Source: Octopus sinensis (lineage: Eukaryota). Taken from it: DNA of 64,000 nt. The stretch spans positions 12,462,001-12,526,000 of the forward strand of contig NC_043002.1 in NCBI RefSeq assembly GCF_006345805.1. The letters are read 5' to 3'. Position numbers and translations under genes: made by a program. Of this stretch, positions 22,341 to 51,185 are shown piece by piece. The number at the start of each line of letters is the position of its first letter. Position 1 is the stretch's first letter. The notes below the pieces were generated by a model that had not been told where the DNA came from, ran no database searches, and saw nothing but the letters and a program-made list of their open reading frames with translations.

Positions 22341-22395
<55 letters not shown>

Positions 22396-22401
<6 letters not shown>

Positions 22402-23467
22402 GATACATATATGTATATATATTTTTATACATATATACTTACATACATATATATATATTCATATATCTATCAATCAATCAATCAATCTATCTATCTATCT
22501 ATATATATATATATCAAGATGTACGTATATATATGTGTATGTGTGTGTGTGTATATATACATATACACACACATATACACACATATATATATATAGACAC
22601 ACGCACATATATATATATATGTATGTATATATGTTTTTGTGTGTATATGTGTGTATGCATGTGTGTGTTTGTGTGTATATGAAAGTCTATAAAGACCAAA
22701 CTCACAGGAAAACTGAAAAAGGGGTCCCGTTTCATCAAGACAATGCTCCAGCACACAAGCCCTTCGTTTCAATAGCTGTTGTGCGTTGAGTGTTTGCTTT
22801 GAACTGGTTGATTACCTTATCTATGCTCCTGATTTCACCCCATCTGTCTGTCTATCTATCTGTCTGTCTGTCTGTCTGTCCGTCCGCCTGTCTGTCTATC
22901 TATCTTTATACATGCATACATAGCTCGCTTTCTTCTTGTATCGTTTAATTGTTTCAGTTATTGGACCGTGGCCATGCTGGGACACCGATTTGAATATATC
23001 GGCGTCAGTACTTCGTTTCAAATTTGGTATGTTAGCAATCGATCTGTTTCGTGGAACATTTGAGTTACTGGTACATAACCAAAGCAACACCGCACATACA
23101 CAAGCACACACATAGGCGCACTTTTTGACTCAAATTCATGTGTGTGTATGTGTATCTGCGTGTACACATATGTGTGTATGGGTTTACATGTGTATATATG
23201 TGTGTATGTGTATGTATATGTGTGTGTGTGAGTGTGCATGTGTATATGCGTGTGGGTATGCATATATATGTGTGTGTGTATGAATGGGCATGTACATAGA
23301 TATGTGTGTGTGTATCTCTATAAGTGTGTGTATATATGTGTGTGTATGTGTGTGCATGTGTGTGCATGTGTTTACATATATATATATACTTATGTGTGTA
23401 TGCATACATATGTGTGTGTATCTGTATAAGTGTGTGTATATATGTATGTGTATGTGCGTGCACTTGT

Positions 23468-23517
<50 letters not shown>

Positions 23518-24590
23518 GATACATATATGTATATATATTTTTATACATATATACTTACATACATATATATATATTCATATATCTATCAATCAATCAATCA
23601 ATCTATCTATCTATCTATATATATATATATATCAAGATGTACGTATATATATGTGTATGTGTGTGTGTGTATATATACATATACACACACATATACACAC
23701 ATATATATATAGACACACGCACATATATATATATATGTATGTATATATGTTTTTGTGTGTATATGTGTGTATGCATGTGTGTGTTGTGTGTATATGAAAG
23801 TCTATAAAGACCAAACTCACAGGAAAACTGAAAAAGGGGTCCCGTTTCATCAAGACAATGCTCCAGCACACAAGCCTTCGTTTCAATAGCTGTTGTGCGT
23901 TGAGTGTTTGCTTTGAACTGGTTGATTACCTTATCTATGCTCCTGATTCACCCCATCTGTCTGTCTATCTATCTGTCTGTCTGTCTGTCTGTCTGTCCGT
24001 CCGCCTGTCTGTCTATCTATCTTATACATGCATACATAGCTCGCTTTCATCTTGTATCGTTTAATTGTTTCAGTTATTGGACCGTGGCCATGCTGGGACA
24101 CCGATTTGAATATATCGGCGTCAGTACTTCGTTTCAAATTTGGTATGTTAGCAATCGATCTGTTTCGTGGAACATTTGAGTTACTGGTACATAACCAAAG
24201 CAACACCGCACATACACAAGCACACACATAGGCGCACTTTTTGACTCAAATTCATGTGTGTGTATGTGTATCTGCGTGTACACATATGTGTGTATGGGTT
24301 TACATGTGTATATATGTGTGTATGTGTATGTATATGTGTGTGTGTGAGTGTGCATGTGTATATGCGTGTGGGTATGCATATATATGTGTGTGTGTATGAA
24401 TGGGCATGTACATAGATATGTGTGTGTGTATCTCTATAAGTGTGTGTATATATGTGTGTGTATGTGTGTGCATGTGTGTGCATGTGTTTACATATATATA
24501 TATACTTATGTGTGTATGCATACATATGTGTGTGTATCTGTATAAGTGTGTGTATATATGTATGTGTATGTGCGTGCACTTGTATATATA
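22396..24590. repeat. Near-identical tandem duplication, period ~1116 bp
   Basis: 22396-23470 is repeated at 23512-24590, including a mariner scrap and a SINE A tail; units are separated by (TA)n. Confidence 0.95.
22695..22835 (+). pseudogene. Mariner transposase fragment (duplicated at ~23810-23950)
   Basis: GVPFHQDNAPAHK...FELVD...YAPD(F) corresponds to the mariner HDNA and YSPDL motifs. Confidence 0.85.
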
Positions 24591-24783
24591 TATATATATA
24601 TATGTATATGTTTGTGTGTGTGTATGACACTTTGTTTCAATAATGTCGATATTGCAGATTTTTCACATCATAGACTTTATCCCGAAATTATCAACACACA
24701 CACACGGACACACACACACACACATACGCACTCACGCAACAAACGCACAATTCAGTCCACTAAACAGTCACCGACCACTTGCT

Positions 24784-30758: not shown

Positions 30759-31979
30759 TTGGGTTGTCCGGAAAGTTCGTGTCGATTTATAGTAGCTTAA
30801 CTTTCGACTTATTTTAGAACATGTTTGAGTCCATAAAATAGGATTTGACCACACCTCCATTTAGAGCACAGTTTAAGCTACCTTTTCGTGGAAGAAGGTT
30901 TATGTTTCTATAACCTGTGTTAATTGTGTAACCCTTTAAAATGGAAGATAAGAAAGTTCATTTTCGGCACTTGGTGCTTTTCTTTTTCCGTAAACTGAAA
31001 AATGCCTCACAAGCAACCAAAGAAATATGCGCAGTTTATGGTGATGTTTCTTTATCAGAAAGAACTGTATGGAAGTGGCTCGCAAGGTTCCGAGCTGGAA
31101 ATTGTAGCCTTATTGATAAAGAGCGATCAGACAGACCATCCACTACAGATGATGACCAAATCAAGTCATTATTTCAGAGTAACTCACATTGCACAACACC
31201 AGAATTGGCAGAAGCCGCAACCTATCAAAATCCGTCGGTCGTGAGCACCTGGTAAAACTTAGATACACAAATCGCTACAATGTTTGGGTACCACATGAGT
31301 TGAATGAGAAGAACCATTTGGATCGCATTTCCATCCGTGATTCGCTTTATAAACGGAATGAAAACGCGCCTTTTTTAAAGCAAATTGTGACAGGTGATGA
31401 GAAATGGATTATCTACCGAAATGTTCAGAGAAAGCGATCCTGGAGTAAGCAACATGAGCCACCCTTAGCCACCCCAAAAGTCTTGCTTTGTATCTGGTGG
31501 GATTGGAAAGGAATACTGTACTATGAGCTTCTTCCAAGTAACCAGACAATTAATTCTGAGAAATACTGCACAAAACTGGACGAGTTAAAAGCAGCAATTC
31601 AAGAGAAACGTCCAGAATTGGCCAACAGGAGGGTGTTGTTTTCCAACATGATGCAAGACCGCACGTTTCTTTAGGAACCAGACAAAATTTGCTGCAGCTC
31701 GGCTGGGATGTGTACCCCCACCCTCCCTATTCATCAGATATTGCTCCTTCGGATTTCCACTTATTCAGGTCTCAGCAGAAGTCTTGGATGACGTAAAAAG
31801 ATACGTTGATGAATTCTTTGCCTTGAAACCACCTCAATTCTGGGAAGAGGGTATTTTCTAGTTAAAAGAAAAGGCGGAGACATATTGTGCAACAAAATGG
31901 TTCATATTTGGTTGATTAAAAATGTAATAGCAAGTATTTATTGACTTTTTTCTTTCCTTTTTCTGTCCGGACAACCCAG
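30759..31979 (+). mobile_element. Mariner (DD34D) transposon, near full length, defective
   Basis: TA|TTGGGTTGTCCGGAAAG ... CTGTCCGGACAACCCAG|TA inverted termini with TA target duplication. Confidence 0.95.
30941..31919 (+). pseudogene. Mariner transposase pseudogene
   Basis: MEDKKVHFRH start, WVPHEL, IVTGDEKW, VLLCIWWDWKG, HDARPH, YSSDIAPSDFHLF; several frameshifts. Confidence 0.95.
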
Positions 31980-40114: not shown

Positions 40115-41390
40115 TGCCATTTTTCTCATTACCATCGTTCTAATCGTATTCATTATGTTAGCCATCATGATAATCTCCATCCTGGTACTCGCCATTTTTG
40201 TCGTCAATACTTTTTCATCGCCTTCGTGATAGTCGCCATCTTGATAGTCATCATCTTGATAGTCGCCATTTTTGTCATCGTCATCATAGCAATTACCATC
40301 GCGGCAGTCACCATTTTATCGCCGCCATCTTAGTAACTGCTATCGTGGTAATCCCAATATTTGTCATCACCGCCATAACGGTCACCTTCTTTGTAGTCAC
40401 CGTTTTGGTCGACACTATTTTAGTAATCACCATCTGCGTGGTTCATCTTCAATACTGGTGACTCCTTCTTTAACCTTCTTCATTTGTCTGTGCTCAATAC
40501 TCCTTTGAATAGTCTCATCTTCGTAAACAACCTCTAGCCTTCTCTAGTCGTCGGACATCATGCATCCTACCTTTATCAAAAGCTTAAAGTCACTTCTGCT
40601 TTGAATCTACTCTTTGCCTGCAAAGCAGAACGGAAGAGTTACTCTAGAGAAAGAGTTACTCTACTTATACATGCAATCTGAGCGTCCTACGTCATTTACT
40701 AAAAAAGCTATGCTCACTTCTGCTTTATTTTCGTGTCAAATCTCGTAATTTCGGAGCCAGCTTAATCCTTGACTGCATCCGCAAACTGCAGAGTTTTGCC
40801 TTTTTAAACAATACGCCGAAATTTTAGTGTAACGATACACAATGAAACTTCAAGCCAGCACTAGTTTGTTAGACTAAATTTTTCACAATTTAAAAACATT
40901 CATAACGTCCACCATGATGGCAACGACAAAGATGGTGACTACCACGATGACGATGACGAATATGGCGACTACCACGATAGCCTTTACCAAGACGGCGTTT
41001 ACCCAAATTGTGACGACAAAAATTGCGGCTATAAAGAAAGCGACTACTATGACGATGATAACAGATATTGCAACTACCACGATAGCAACTACCAAGATGG
41101 CGGCGACAAAATGGCGACTACCAAGATGGTGAATACTAGGAACGCAATGACAGAATGGTTACGACAAAAGTGGCGACTAACAAGATGGCGATTACCACGT
41201 CGCTGATGACAAAGTGGAGACTAACACGATGACGACTACCACGAGGGTCTTTACGAAGATAACGATGACAAAAATGGTGACTATCAAGATGAGGGTTGCC
41301 AAAATAGCGAGGGCAAAAATGGCGACTACCAAGATGGCGACGAAAAAAAAATTGTTAACACTCACAATGGCGCTGACCTAAAATTGCGTC
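40115..41390. mobile_element. Foldback-like element: inverted arms of degenerate 15-bp repeats around a ~470-bp spacer
   Basis: Left arm units GTCGCCATCTTGRTA (40115-40440); right arm units ACCAAGATGGCGACT (40908-41390); the arms align colinearly as reverse complements. Confidence 0.75.
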
Positions 41391-48470: not shown

Positions 48471-49802
48471 CGACTATATATAAAACTGTATATAACAATA
48501 ACTGTTTTTTCTTATATATATATATATATATGCGTACGTGCACATGTGTATTATGTATGTACATGTGTGTGTGTGTTTGTGTGTAAGTTAGTAAGTATGA
48601 TAGTGTACGTGCTTGCACGCGCGTGTGTGTGTGTATGTATACTCAAAGCCAGTCGTTAAACCTGTTTCTTCTTGATATGTTCTTGTAATCTACAATGTTT
48701 AACTCCTGTCAGTATTAAGTGCTTTCATTCAGAGATCCATTTCACATGAAACCAAAACAAACAACTAATTATAACAATAAAGAACGAAGAGCCGAGCTAA
48801 AGCAATGCCTGCGGAACAAATTTACTAAAAGTTGAACACATTAAGTAAGAAGAGTCTCTCCTGCATGTACATATCTCTGAATAAATCTTGTTGTACCTTG
48901 GGACGGTCATTACGACAATAATAATAATAACACTTGCACTGGTTCAAATTCGCTTCTTTATTTTCATCTACTTGGTTAAATATCTAACCAATTAAATAAT
49001 CAATTGTTTGTTTAATGTGCTTTAGTTAGTGGGTTAGAGATTTGGTCAACTGACTAAGAATAAAGATGTGATACTGAGACAGTGTGTGTGTTATTACTAG
49101 CATGATGACCCATCCAAGACACAGAAAGTTTTGTTTCAAAACATGATTTCACGAGAAGAATCTTCCACAACTAATGCATAAACGTCTGAATGCATTTTTT
49201 TATCTTTTGACAACCACCTCGAAGGGTGTTGATCACATAAATCGATTCTGGTATTATTTATTATAATTCCTTTAGTGGGTGTGGGGAGGCTTAAGTTTGG
49301 AACTCATTCTGTCGTTCTCTTTTGCCGAACTGCTAAAATAGGAGGACGTAAACAAATCAACACATGTTGTAAAGCGGTTGTGAGTCACACACACACACAT
49401 ACACACACATGCATTCACACATACACATATGCACTCACACACACCCATACATTCACACACACATACAAACACAAAGACACAAACGCATACGCACAAACAC
49501 ATACAAACACACACCCATACATTCACACACACACACACACACACGAAGATATGCACATACAAACACACACCCATACATTCACACACACGTACACACACAC
49601 ATGTAATTTTGTGGGGTCTAACGGGTGTATATCAATCAGTGTATTGATGTACTGAATAGAGCACTGGCGTGGTTTGAGCTACCTGGTGTCATCCGCAGTT
49701 TGGGTATATTCCCACTGGATCTACTTCAGGAATTCCGCAGTATTAGTTGAGATAATAATCGATTAAAGAAACAGAAGATAGATTTGGTATTAGTCTTTAT
49801 TG

Positions 49803-49897
49803 TGTACTACGATCGTTTCGACCCATCCTGCGACTGTCCCATGTGGGTGGGATACTATACATAATATTATATTGCAGGCTGGGTCACATCAGGTACA
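49803..49897 (-). ncRNA. Type I hammerhead ribozyme motif with extended stem II
   Basis: Minus: TGTAC-CTGATGT-GACCCA-G-CCTGC...GCAGG-A-TGGGTC-GAAA-CGATCG-TA-GTACA; 5-bp stem I, palindromic stem III, GUA triplet; A9 is replaced by U. Confidence 0.7.
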
Positions 49898-50539
49898 TTC
49901 ATGCATAAAGTGGTGTCTCACTAAAGATCTTGACTTTGGGCAGCCACGTTTTTTGCCCGCTTCAGTTAGGGAATGATGCGTTGCTATAATCTACATACAA
50001 CGGATTTCTTTCAGCATTCAACAACGAGATGAACTCAGGAGGCTTCGGTTTGCCCGGGGCTATAGCAGAAAACTCTTGTCCAAGGTTTTCCCGCACTCAG
50101 CTCGAACCCGAAACCATGTGGTTGGGAAGTGAGCCTCTTATCTACACAAACATTCTTGTGTCTATTGTAGAAAATAATAGTGCAGCTAGTCACCGAAATA
50201 TGCACATACACTTAGACATGCTGATAAGAACTAATCGGGCTGGTATTATATTCAAGGATAAAGCAATCAGGACTTAAACCCAGTTTGATAAGACATGTCC
50301 ATCTGATAAGAGCGTATCAGTGTAGGAGATAAGGACAATTACAAAATACAAGAGTTTGAAAATAATGATAGGGTGAGTAAGAAGGAGTCTAGAAAATAAA
50401 GCTATATCTTGTTTGTGGGAAATGTTGCGCTTGTGTGGCCATGTGGATAGGAAGCTCATGTGACAAGCATTTGTTGTTCGGTTCAGTTCGACCACGGTGG
50501 TGGGACTTTTGGGAAATGTTTCGTACCGTATAAAGTCTT

Positions 50540-51185
50540 GGACCGTATAAAGGCGGATGAGGAGAAGAAGAAGTAGGAGGGGAAGGAGGAGAAGGAGAAG
50601 AAATAGAAGAGGAGGAAGAAGGGGAAGCAGAGGAGAAATAAGTAGAAGAGAAGAGAAGGTGTAAGAAGAAGAAGAAGCAGAAGAGGAAGAAGAAGAAGAA
50701 GCAGAATGGGGAGAGGGAGAAGAAAAAGAAGAATGGGGAGAGGGAGAAGAAGTATGGGGAGAGGGAGAAGAAGAATGGGGAGAGGGAGGAGAAGAAGAAG
50801 AAGAAGAAGAAGAATGGGGTGAGGGAGAAGAAAAAGAAGAATGGGGAGAGGGAGAAGAAGAAGAAGAAGAGGAGGAGGAAGAAGAAAAAGAAGCAGAATG
50901 GGGAGAGGGAGAAGGAAAAGAAGAATGGGGAGAGGGAGAAGAAGAAGAATAGAGATAGGGAGAAGAAGAAGAAGAAAAAGAGTGGGGAGAGGGAGAAGAG
51001 CAGTAAAAGTGGGATGAGGTGGAGGTTAAAGAAAGAAGAAAGGGAAAAAGTGGGAAGATGGTTAGAAAGGGGTGGAGGTACAGTGGACAGAGGGCGAAGA
51101 AGAGGGGAGAAACAGGTCGAAGAGTGGATAGGGGAAAAGAGAGAAGAAGGAGAGGAAGAGGCGAAGGAGGAGGAAAAGGAATAGA
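50540..51185. repeat. Polypurine tract/minisatellite (GAA)n plus GAATGGGGAGAGGGAGAA units
   Basis: ~640 bp almost purely A/G on the + strand. Confidence 0.95.

What the first reader, a model, noticed from the sequence alone, without database searches (positions are those of the whole stretch)
49803..49897. Hammerhead with long branched stem II and palindromic stem III
Seen (minus strand): stem I UGUAC/GUACA, core CUGAUGU, stem II GACCCA/UGGGUC extended by CCUGC/GCAGG around a ~45-nt insert, GAAA, self-complementary ACGAUCGU and a GUA triplet, followed shortly by AATAAA. Known: palindromic stem III is the hallmark of PLE hammerheads that cleave as dimers. Inference: a distinct family with an unusually large stem II insertion; A9U may be decay or a family variant.
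Basis: partly seen in the sequence, partly recalled or inferred. Interest (0 to 1): 0.72.

Follow-up and report, generated by a model that had tools for sequence, protein, structure and literature searches.

The report
Long-armed hammerhead with altered catalytic core
This is a decayed end-piece of a Penelope-type jumping gene that carries a hammerhead (self-cutting RNA) motif with an oversized branched arm and a changed core letter shared by a whole lineage of copies, and its relatives likely record the core letter being restored and the arm later deleted; whether it cuts RNA is untested.

Summary
The motif is real: a type I hammerhead at 49803-49897 (-), inside a solitary, 5'-truncated, ~390-bp 3' end of a Hydra-clade Penelope-like retrotransposon. 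Walking upstream through other genomic copies reached a decayed GIY-YIG endonuclease and RT with Hydra motifs. The long branched stem II is family-wide (77 nt in family majorities, 66 here). It is shared, with compensatory changes in stems I-III, by a sister family whose upstream flank no longer aligns; published Hydra hammerheads have loop 2 of 3-10 nt. A9U is not decay: it marks an amplified lineage (30 exact genomic hits versus 39 for A9) linked to ten diagnostic sites. An endonuclease tree puts U9 long copies basal, then A9 long copies, then a clade with a 59-nt deletion of the arm. The arm's loss is well supported; the U9-to-A9 reversal only weakly. Copies decay neutrally (~11%), the GUA triplet is private to this copy, and there is no tandem partner, so cis dimer cleavage cannot occur here. 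Earlier scan notes already reported long-armed Hydra hammerheads on other DNA; the U9 lineage and arm-loss series were not in the notes I saw. New variant of a known kind; activity untested.

The parts
49603..49990 (-). 5'-truncated 3' end (pLTR part) of a Hydra-clade Penelope-like element, U9 long-arm subfamily; no ORF
   Evidence: homology to family copies ends at 49990-49996 on the 5' side and at the shared long 3' end near 49603
49803..49897 (-). type I hammerhead motif
   Evidence: Rfam RF00163 27.4 bits, E 4e-4, below gathering 34; strict scan hit
49893..49897 (-). stem I, 5' strand
   Evidence: sequence; 92.9% of cells paired in 28 copies
49886..49892 (-). core C3-U4-G5-A6-U7-G8-U9; U at 49886 replaces conserved A9
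   Evidence: T at position 9 in 25 of 28 closest copies, A in 0; 30 exact U9 and 39 exact A9 20-mer hits in G000
49820..49885 (-). branched stem II domain, 66 nt here (11-nt deletion), 77 nt in family majorities: 6-bp stem, second helix, two inner hairpins
49809..49819 (-). GAAA plus palindromic stem III ACGAUCGU
   Evidence: sequence; predicted self-duplex -10.0 kcal/mol
49803..49808 (-). position 17 (A here, C in 47 of 70 U9 copies) and stem I 3' strand; predicted cut between 49808 and 49807
49755..49766 (-). the family's short 3' end site, about 50 nt past the cut site; this copy runs on through it
   Evidence: 59 of 142 alignments end here
49603..49754 (-). about 150-nt 'tail' between the two family 3' ends
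   Evidence: 47 of 142 alignments end at the long end
49386..49601 (.). degenerate CA/TG microsatellite directly 3' of the element (likely target site)
   Evidence: TRF; family copies end in (TA)n or (AC)n
49991..50148 (-). unrelated high-copy SINE-like repeat abutting the 5' truncation point (not part of the element)
   Evidence: 9 further matches in the window; very high contig depth at 50042-50145; 'SINE' label recalled

Best explanation
The stretch is a solitary, neutrally decaying 3'-end copy of a Hydra-clade Penelope-like retrotransposon whose hammerhead motif has a lineage-wide U at position 9 and a conserved 77-nt branched stem II; in the source element the motif likely cut weakly, as a dimer or with help from the element's protein, and cutting was likely not needed for insertion. 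Shown: family membership, link to a GIY-YIG/RT ORF, two 3' ends, inverted 5' partners, microsatellite targets, linkage of U9 to subfamily sites, cross-family covariation. Inferred: the RT-endonuclease nicked AT-rich microsatellite DNA and began reverse transcription at one of two internal sites about 50 or 200 nt past the hammerhead, as shown in vitro for the anole PLE PAc; early termination left this 390-bp fragment. The arm likely served as a folding aid or protein handle that let lineages tolerate core changes (A9U here, U4C in the sister family) and was dispensable, because one descendant lineage deleted 59 nt of it and kept spreading with a canonical core.
For: Family: 43 matches, 581 candidates, 40 scored. 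Colinear walk over a 1.2-2.4-kb non-coding 3' UTR to a decayed GIY-YIG C-terminus. L121/L149 holds the endonuclease end, the long hammerhead about 1.2 kb downstream on the same strand, and an inverted copy 5'. L150 shows RWK, DKT, RT motifs, CxCX5C and CxxC-E in order next to an inverted long hammerhead. U9 versus A9: ten linked sites, Fisher p 4e-18 to 1.6e-5, 33 A9 and 70 U9 copies. Sister family F2: same 77-nt length, 45 of 77 identical ungapped, alignment score 66 versus shuffles 11.5+-6.9 (0 of 300), upstream 70 nt unalignable (53 of 300); three double changes in stem I, one each in stems II and III. Short form: 31 exact hits, nested inside long forms with starred support; long F1 monophyly rejected, AU p 0.0053; one long/short change on the tree. 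Neutral decay: in 16 copies found through the upstream flank, core 17/160, stems 34/317, inner arm 138/957, flank 149/1182 changed. PAc: hammerhead protein-assisted and not needed for insertion in vitro (PMC11167929). Outside contacts can offset variant cores; U4C stays infectious in a viroid (PMC3088659).
Against: No cleavage assay exists. Covariation within the family is weak: score 0.116 versus 0.104 shuffled, 22 of 500; RNAalifold covariation term -0.14. Inner hairpins are not the same pairs in F1 and F2: only the 6-bp basal stem II is pairable in all four majorities in ungapped register, so conserved sequence is better shown than a conserved inner fold. Pfam does not recognise the decayed ORF pieces and the homolog search found none, so Hydra assignment rests on motifs compared by eye with PMC8557442. 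The tree is midpoint-rooted. For 5 of the labelled long-arm loci (L117, L135, L150, L157, L263) the hammerhead lies upstream or inverted, not downstream, of the endonuclease, and L117's fragment lacks position 9. No intact ORF of this family was seen among 150 scored hits.
Confidence: 0.8

Rival explanations
1. The U9 hammerhead was catalytically dead. The element spread anyway because cleavage is dispensable, and the stems were kept only as a structural signal for the RT or by inertia.
For: A9 is part of the consensus core used to reject candidates (PMC3088659); all 26 Hydra rows in File S2 of PMC8557442 have A9; PAc catalytic mutants still insert in vitro; the unconstrained fold mispairs the core in U9 majorities. 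Each long-arm lineage carries a different blemish: U9; non-palindromic stem III with GUU in the A9 lineage; U4C in F2.
Against: U9 copies keep GUC (47 of 70, the other 19 T fit CpG decay), the perfect palindrome and the other core letters as majority. If the tree order holds, A9 returned and the palindrome was rebuilt with a double change in the short clade, which a long-dead motif would not easily do.
Confidence: 0.45
2. It is a non-autonomous retrozyme that spreads through small circular RNAs from tandem arrays.
For: Type I hammerhead with palindromic stem III; most copies are short and ORF-less; animal retrozymes are 300-400-nt repeats with type I hammerheads (PMC7229834, passages).
Against: Variable 5' ends, colinear extension into a PLE ORF, inverted rather than head-to-tail partners, two fixed 3' ends.
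Confidence: 0.05
3. This particular copy has been co-opted by the host and is an active, selected ribozyme.
For: It keeps all three stems and the core and passes the strict scan; the locus junction is present in contigs of organisms B and C and the motif is unchanged in contigs of C and D.
Against: It is 12% diverged from its subfamily majority with an 11-nt deletion; those organisms are too close to be informative (1 difference in 447 flanking bases in B); no host gene was recognised in 12 window ORFs tested; no dimer partner in the window.
Confidence: 0.04
4. The conserved arm is a DNA-level element (a promoter or a tRNA-derived piece inside the pLTR), not an RNA structure.
For: The inner sequence is conserved between F1 and F2 (29 of 42) while its pairs are not; pLTRs carry promoters (PMC6765202, passage).
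Against: No Rfam tRNA or other family match at E<=10 in this copy, an F2 copy or an A9 copy; six unrelated sequence types in the fetched DNA also have 43-64-nt stem II domains, which points to selection on length or shape rather than on one sequence.
Confidence: 0.1

Closest known systems
Hammerheads of Hydra-clade C-terminal EN+ Penelope-like elements (Craig et al. 2021, PMC8557442, section 11 and File S2), including Hydra-1_Obim
   Same: Type I hammerhead near the 3' end; short, mostly self-complementary stem III; (TA)n-type targets; RWK, DKT, CxCX5C, CxxC and CxH motifs, no CCHH; inverted 5'-truncated partners.
   Different: Loop 2 is 3-10 nt and position 9 is A in all 26 Hydra rows; here the stem II domain is 77 nt and one lineage has U9. 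Hydra-1_Obim's hammerhead has another sequence. The 3' UTR here is over 1.2 kb and the tail about 150 nt rather than 30-40.
Minimal and palindromic PLE hammerheads of animals (Cervera and de la Pena 2014, PMC4209133; Lunse et al. 2017, seen only as cited in PMC6765202)
   Same: PLE pLTR location, palindromic stem III, helix II larger than usual, family-level core variants (U3-A8), many solitary truncated copies, low activity even as dimers.
   Different: Described helix II is 6-8 bp with a small loop; they carry an extra base between 9 and 10.1, absent here; no A9U variant in the parts read.
PAc (Poseidon of Anolis) hammerhead (Frangieh et al. 2024, PMC11167929)
   Same: Two 3' ends with a tail between them downstream of the hammerhead; AT-rich targets.
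   Different: Different PLE clade; PAc's hammerhead overlaps the start codon and has a normal stem II; overlap with an ORF start was not shown here.
PLE-X1_sMoe and PLE-X1_sTam hammerheads (File S2 of PMC8557442)
   Same: Enlarged loop 2 (35 and 29 nt), flagged as deviating from the canonical structure.
   Different: Plant EN-less Chlamys-related elements; loops about half the size; A9 intact.
Animal non-LTR retrozymes (PMC7229834)
   Same: Type I hammerhead in a repeated non-coding unit.
   Different: Retrozymes are tandem 300-400-nt units without an ORF; this family is dispersed and ORF-linked.

Membership tests
Type I hammerhead ribozyme | Three stems around the core, stem I open | tested here: met
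   (86.9% of 779 cells paired, 20-40% in slid controls)
Type I hammerhead ribozyme | Core C3 U4 G5 A6 N7 G8 A9, G12 A13 A14 A15, U16 H17 | tested here: not met
   All met except A9, which is U in this copy and its lineage; met in the A9 long and short relatives
Type I hammerhead ribozyme | Rfam RF00163 gathering score (34 bits) | tested here: not met
   27.4 bits; of 10 family loci scanned at E<=0.05 only the short-arm L143 matched, 28.2 bits
Type I hammerhead ribozyme | Self-cleavage 3' of position 17 | not testable with these tools
   needs an in vitro assay; only contigs were available
Dimer-cleaving PLE hammerheads | Short palindromic stem III | tested here: met
   perfect 8-nt palindrome in U9, F2 and short majorities; broken in the A9 long lineage
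Dimer-cleaving PLE hammerheads | Second hammerhead in the same transcript | tested here: not met
   single copy in the window; tandem partner in 8 of 90 loci
Penelope-like element | RT plus GIY-YIG endonuclease upstream of the hammerhead in long copies | tested here: met
   L121/L149, L150, L157, L265; by motif, not by Pfam; absent from the window copy itself
Penelope-like element | 5' truncation, inverted or tandem partial copies, optional tail | tested here: met
Hydra clade | RWK and DKT motifs in the N-terminal region | tested here: met
   L150 positions 1785 and 2464
Hydra clade | CxCX5C linker, no CCHH, CxxC and CxH around E and N of the endonuclease | tested here: met
   translations of L119-L146, L150 and L157, compared by eye with section 11 of PMC8557442
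Hydra clade | Insertion into (TA)n | tested here: met
   copies end in (TA)n or (AC)n runs; judged by eye, not counted
Hydra clade | RT phylogeny grouping with described Hydra families | not tested
Non-LTR retrozyme | Tandem ORF-less monomers bounded by hammerheads | tested here: not met
Non-LTR retrozyme | Abundant circular RNA | not testable with these tools
   no raw reads offered

The most novel reading that the evidence does not exclude
The branched 77-nt arm is a new kind of peripheral hammerhead domain that rescues cores thought to be crippled: one retrotransposon radiation ran an active U9 ribozyme for a long stretch of its history (and a C4 one in the sister family), then reverted U9 to A9 and only afterwards could delete the arm. 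The genome would then hold a complete natural series (U9 long, A9 long, A9 short, C4 long) for testing how PLE hammerheads trade core chemistry against outer structure, and whether PLEs tune their ribozymes down on purpose.
Probability: 0.2. Interest if true: 0.68.

Novelty: new variant of a known kind. Interest (0 to 1): 0.4.

Why it matters
What PLE hammerheads do is still open: they cut poorly, and in the one element tested cutting is not needed for insertion. A lineage that amplified with a substitution at a 'conserved' core position, next to sister lineages with and without a large conserved arm, gives ready-made constructs to ask whether cleavage, the fold or protein binding is what selection keeps. 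It also shows that descriptor and Rfam searches undercount hammerheads: this family scores below threshold. The window copy itself is an ordinary fossil, and the long arm had been noted by this scan elsewhere.

Tried and rejected
First guess Nematis or Neptune clade: rejected; no blastn or tblastn link to 30 Neptune-like GIY-YIG loci, motifs fit Hydra. First guess that the arm is a recent insertion into a short hammerhead: reversed by the sister family and the tree. A reading of the upstream region as an antisense GIY-YIG was wrong; the ORF end lies on the hammerhead strand further up. One search used a mis-registered structure string and is discarded (redone). One search's pattern had one letter too many (0 hits; redone). 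PF26215 is not in the library. Pfam and the homolog search did not recognise the decayed proteins. A tRNA origin of the arm: no Rfam support. ORF start inside the tail, as in PAc: no shared continuation past the long 3' end and no overlap with the N-terminal pieces of L150 or L155. Expression: no RNA holder listed; family-like pieces lie in contigs of three guessed-RNA runs of one study, which show neither ends nor strand and may be DNA; neither is used as evidence. U9 monophyly was not rejected on 29 rows (AU p 0.066) and only marginally on 50 rows (0.049 and 0.038), with groups named after the tree was seen. Organism E: its flank contig stops matching at 50113, so presence of this insertion there is undecided. 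Literature searches that found no report of A9U or of a long stem II in PLE hammerheads: (listings only; subscription papers are not covered). Lunse 2017 and the Scott 2013 review are not held; either may bear on A9 variants.

Full report
Observation. Rfam gives Hammerhead_1 at 27.4 bits, E 4e-4, below the gathering score, and nothing at gathering level in the window. The fold is better than 198 of 200 shuffles (z -2.74). The window is microsatellite-rich animal DNA from a 2.72-Gb assembly, G000. I take it to be an octopus, from my own recollection of such repeats and from earlier scan notes; this was not established here.

It is one copy of a dispersed family. A 141-nt query gave 43 matches at 76-84% identity from 581 candidates, 40 scored. 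Thirty aligned loci share variable 5' ends and two 3' ends: of 142 alignments to the downstream region, 59 stop about 50 nt and 47 about 200 nt past the cut site, mostly running into (TA)n or (AC)n. Of 90 loci (some overlapping), 57 are single, 25 have an inverted partner, 4 a tandem one and 4 both. The window copy spans about 49603-49990, has the long end, abuts an unrelated high-copy repeat at its 5' break, and has no second hammerhead or endonuclease in the window.

The family is a Hydra-clade PLE. Walking upstream crossed 1.2-2.4 kb of non-coding, TG-rich sequence and reached a decayed GIY-YIG C-terminus. That piece (P0001) has 150 scored hits from 7146 candidates, most with stops. L121/L149 carries the endonuclease end, the long hammerhead about 1.2 kb downstream and an inverted copy directly 5'. 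L150 shows RWK, DKT, RT motifs, CxCX5C and CxxC-E in order beside an inverted long hammerhead. These are the defining motifs of the Hydra clade in PMC8557442 (section 11 read; passages; supplement searches). Pfam and the homolog search did not recognise these pieces, so the assignment is by motif. File S2 of that paper (part 2 of 59 read) lists 26 Hydra hammerhead rows, all with A9 and loop 2 of 3-10 nt.

A9U is a lineage trait. Position 9 is T in 25 of the 28 closest copies and A in none. Exact 20-mers give 39 A9 and 30 U9 long-arm hits genome-wide, 0 in reversed controls. Among 110 full-length copies (enriched by those two searches) there are 70 T, 35 A (2 of them F2 copies, dropped), 3 C, 1 G and 1 gap. 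Ten other sites segregate with position 9 (Fisher p 4e-18 to 1.6e-5), though not perfectly. U9 copies have the palindrome and GUC; A9 long copies have a broken palindrome and GUU. So source elements with U9 amplified. All three F1 subfamilies are about 11% from their majority outside CpG sites. In the 16 copies found through the flank, and so least biased, core, stems, arm and flank changed alike (10.6, 10.7, 14.4, 12.6%): the copies are fossils. GUA and the fifth pair of the second helix are private to the window copy.

The arm is old and conserved. A sister family, F2 (2538 candidates, 40 scored; 5.8% diverged), has the same 77-nt stem II domain, 45 of 77 letters identical without gaps, while the 70 nt upstream no longer align. 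Between the families stem I shows three double changes, stem II one and stem III one that keeps the palindrome. F2 has C at position 4 in 27 of 30 copies, a variant known from a viroid (PMC3088659; passages and section 8 read). Limits: covariation inside F1 is weak (22 of 500 shuffles as high), and only the basal 6 bp are pairable in all four majorities in ungapped register, so the inner fold is predicted, not shown.

Order of events. Other relatives have the same stems I and II but lack 59 nt of the arm and have a canonical core and palindrome (31 exact hits). On an endonuclease DNA tree of 50 loci the short forms nest, with starred support, inside long forms; F2 and a third group lie outside; U9 loci branch first, A9 long loci next (29-row version). 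Monophyly of the long F1 loci is rejected (AU p 0.0053) and one long/short change suffices on 30 labelled rows. Arm loss is therefore well supported, given a midpoint root. A U9-to-A9 reversal is weaker: p 0.066 on 29 rows, 0.049 and 0.038 on 50 rows, groups named after seeing the tree, few U9 loci, and several labels taken from upstream or inverted hammerheads. One U9 long hammerhead with F2-like stems sits beside an endonuclease of the third group (L263), which would make U9 old.

Mechanism. By analogy with PAc (PMC11167929; passages and second half of the main text read), the element's protein nicks AT-rich DNA and starts reverse transcription at two internal sites, which explains the two 3' ends; the hammerhead there cuts only with protein and is not needed for insertion in vitro. 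Animal PLE hammerheads cut poorly even as dimers (PMC4209133, parts 1-2 of 4 read; PMC6765202 passages). That A9 pairs with G12 next to the active site is recalled, not read here. I therefore expect weak or no cleavage from U9, put about even odds on a dead core, and think the arm most likely a folding aid or protein handle that is useful but dispensable.

Context. A strict scan of 1.27 Mb of fetched DNA found 35 hammerheads, 9 of them from six unrelated sequence types with 43-64-nt stem II domains, and none in shuffled DNA. Long arms are thus common in this genome. Six earlier scan notes report long-armed Hydra-type hammerheads on other DNA; none matched this sequence and none of the lines shown mentions A9U or arm loss. 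My searches found no paper on A9U or long-armed PLE hammerheads, but Lunse et al. 2017 could not be read.

Verdict. Real motif, known kind of host and ribozyme, new variant in arm and core; this copy is a fossil. Interest 0.4.

Noticed in passing
L050:2174(+), L059, L119, L179, L305, L156, L174, L187, L198: Six unrelated type I hammerhead sequence types with 43-64-nt stem II domains and mostly palindromic stem III turned up in flanks of fetched loci; two have C at position 4.
   Followed up: partly
L227-L256 (family F2): Younger, more abundant sister family (2538 candidates) with U4C in 27 of 30 copies, the homologous 77-nt arm and a classical ~40-nt tail.
   Followed up: yes
L277-L306, L147, L148, L158: Short-arm sister clade with fully canonical core and palindromic stem III, derived by a 59-nt deletion.
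   Followed up: yes
L068, L077, L080, L086 3' ends: A young Neptune-like PLE family (open frames up to 781 aa) ends in a hammerhead-like motif that by eye has U3-A8 and a palindromic stem III; some members carry tandem internal repeats in the 3' UTR.
   Followed up: no
L155:1-1631: Near-complete N-terminus and RT of another Hydra-type family with an inverted long-armed hammerhead of different sequence directly upstream (seen by eye).
   Followed up: no
L263:936-1089 (-), L165:7323-7447 (-): Hammerheads intermediate between F1 and F2 (F2-like stems I and II, F1-like stem III); L263 has U9.
   Followed up: partly
window 49991-50148: High-copy SINE-like repeat abutting the 5' break of the element on the same strand; 9 more matches in the window.
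   Followed up: partly
window 22349-24609: Tandem duplication of about 1117 bp at 98.6% identity; real or an assembly artefact.
   Followed up: no
window 31183-31671 (+): Mariner-type transposase fragment (Pfam Transposase_1, E 1.7e-22).
   Followed up: no
window 40911-41341: Degenerate 15-nt tandem array, about 29 copies.
   Followed up: no
window 50559-50999: Long purine-rich GAA/GGA tandem array 600 bp from the element.
   Followed up: no
L027/L028 (G000:C12 near 68.895 Mb): A 1158-bp tandem duplication, each unit holding a full hammerhead plus two partial copies in opposite orientations.
   Followed up: no
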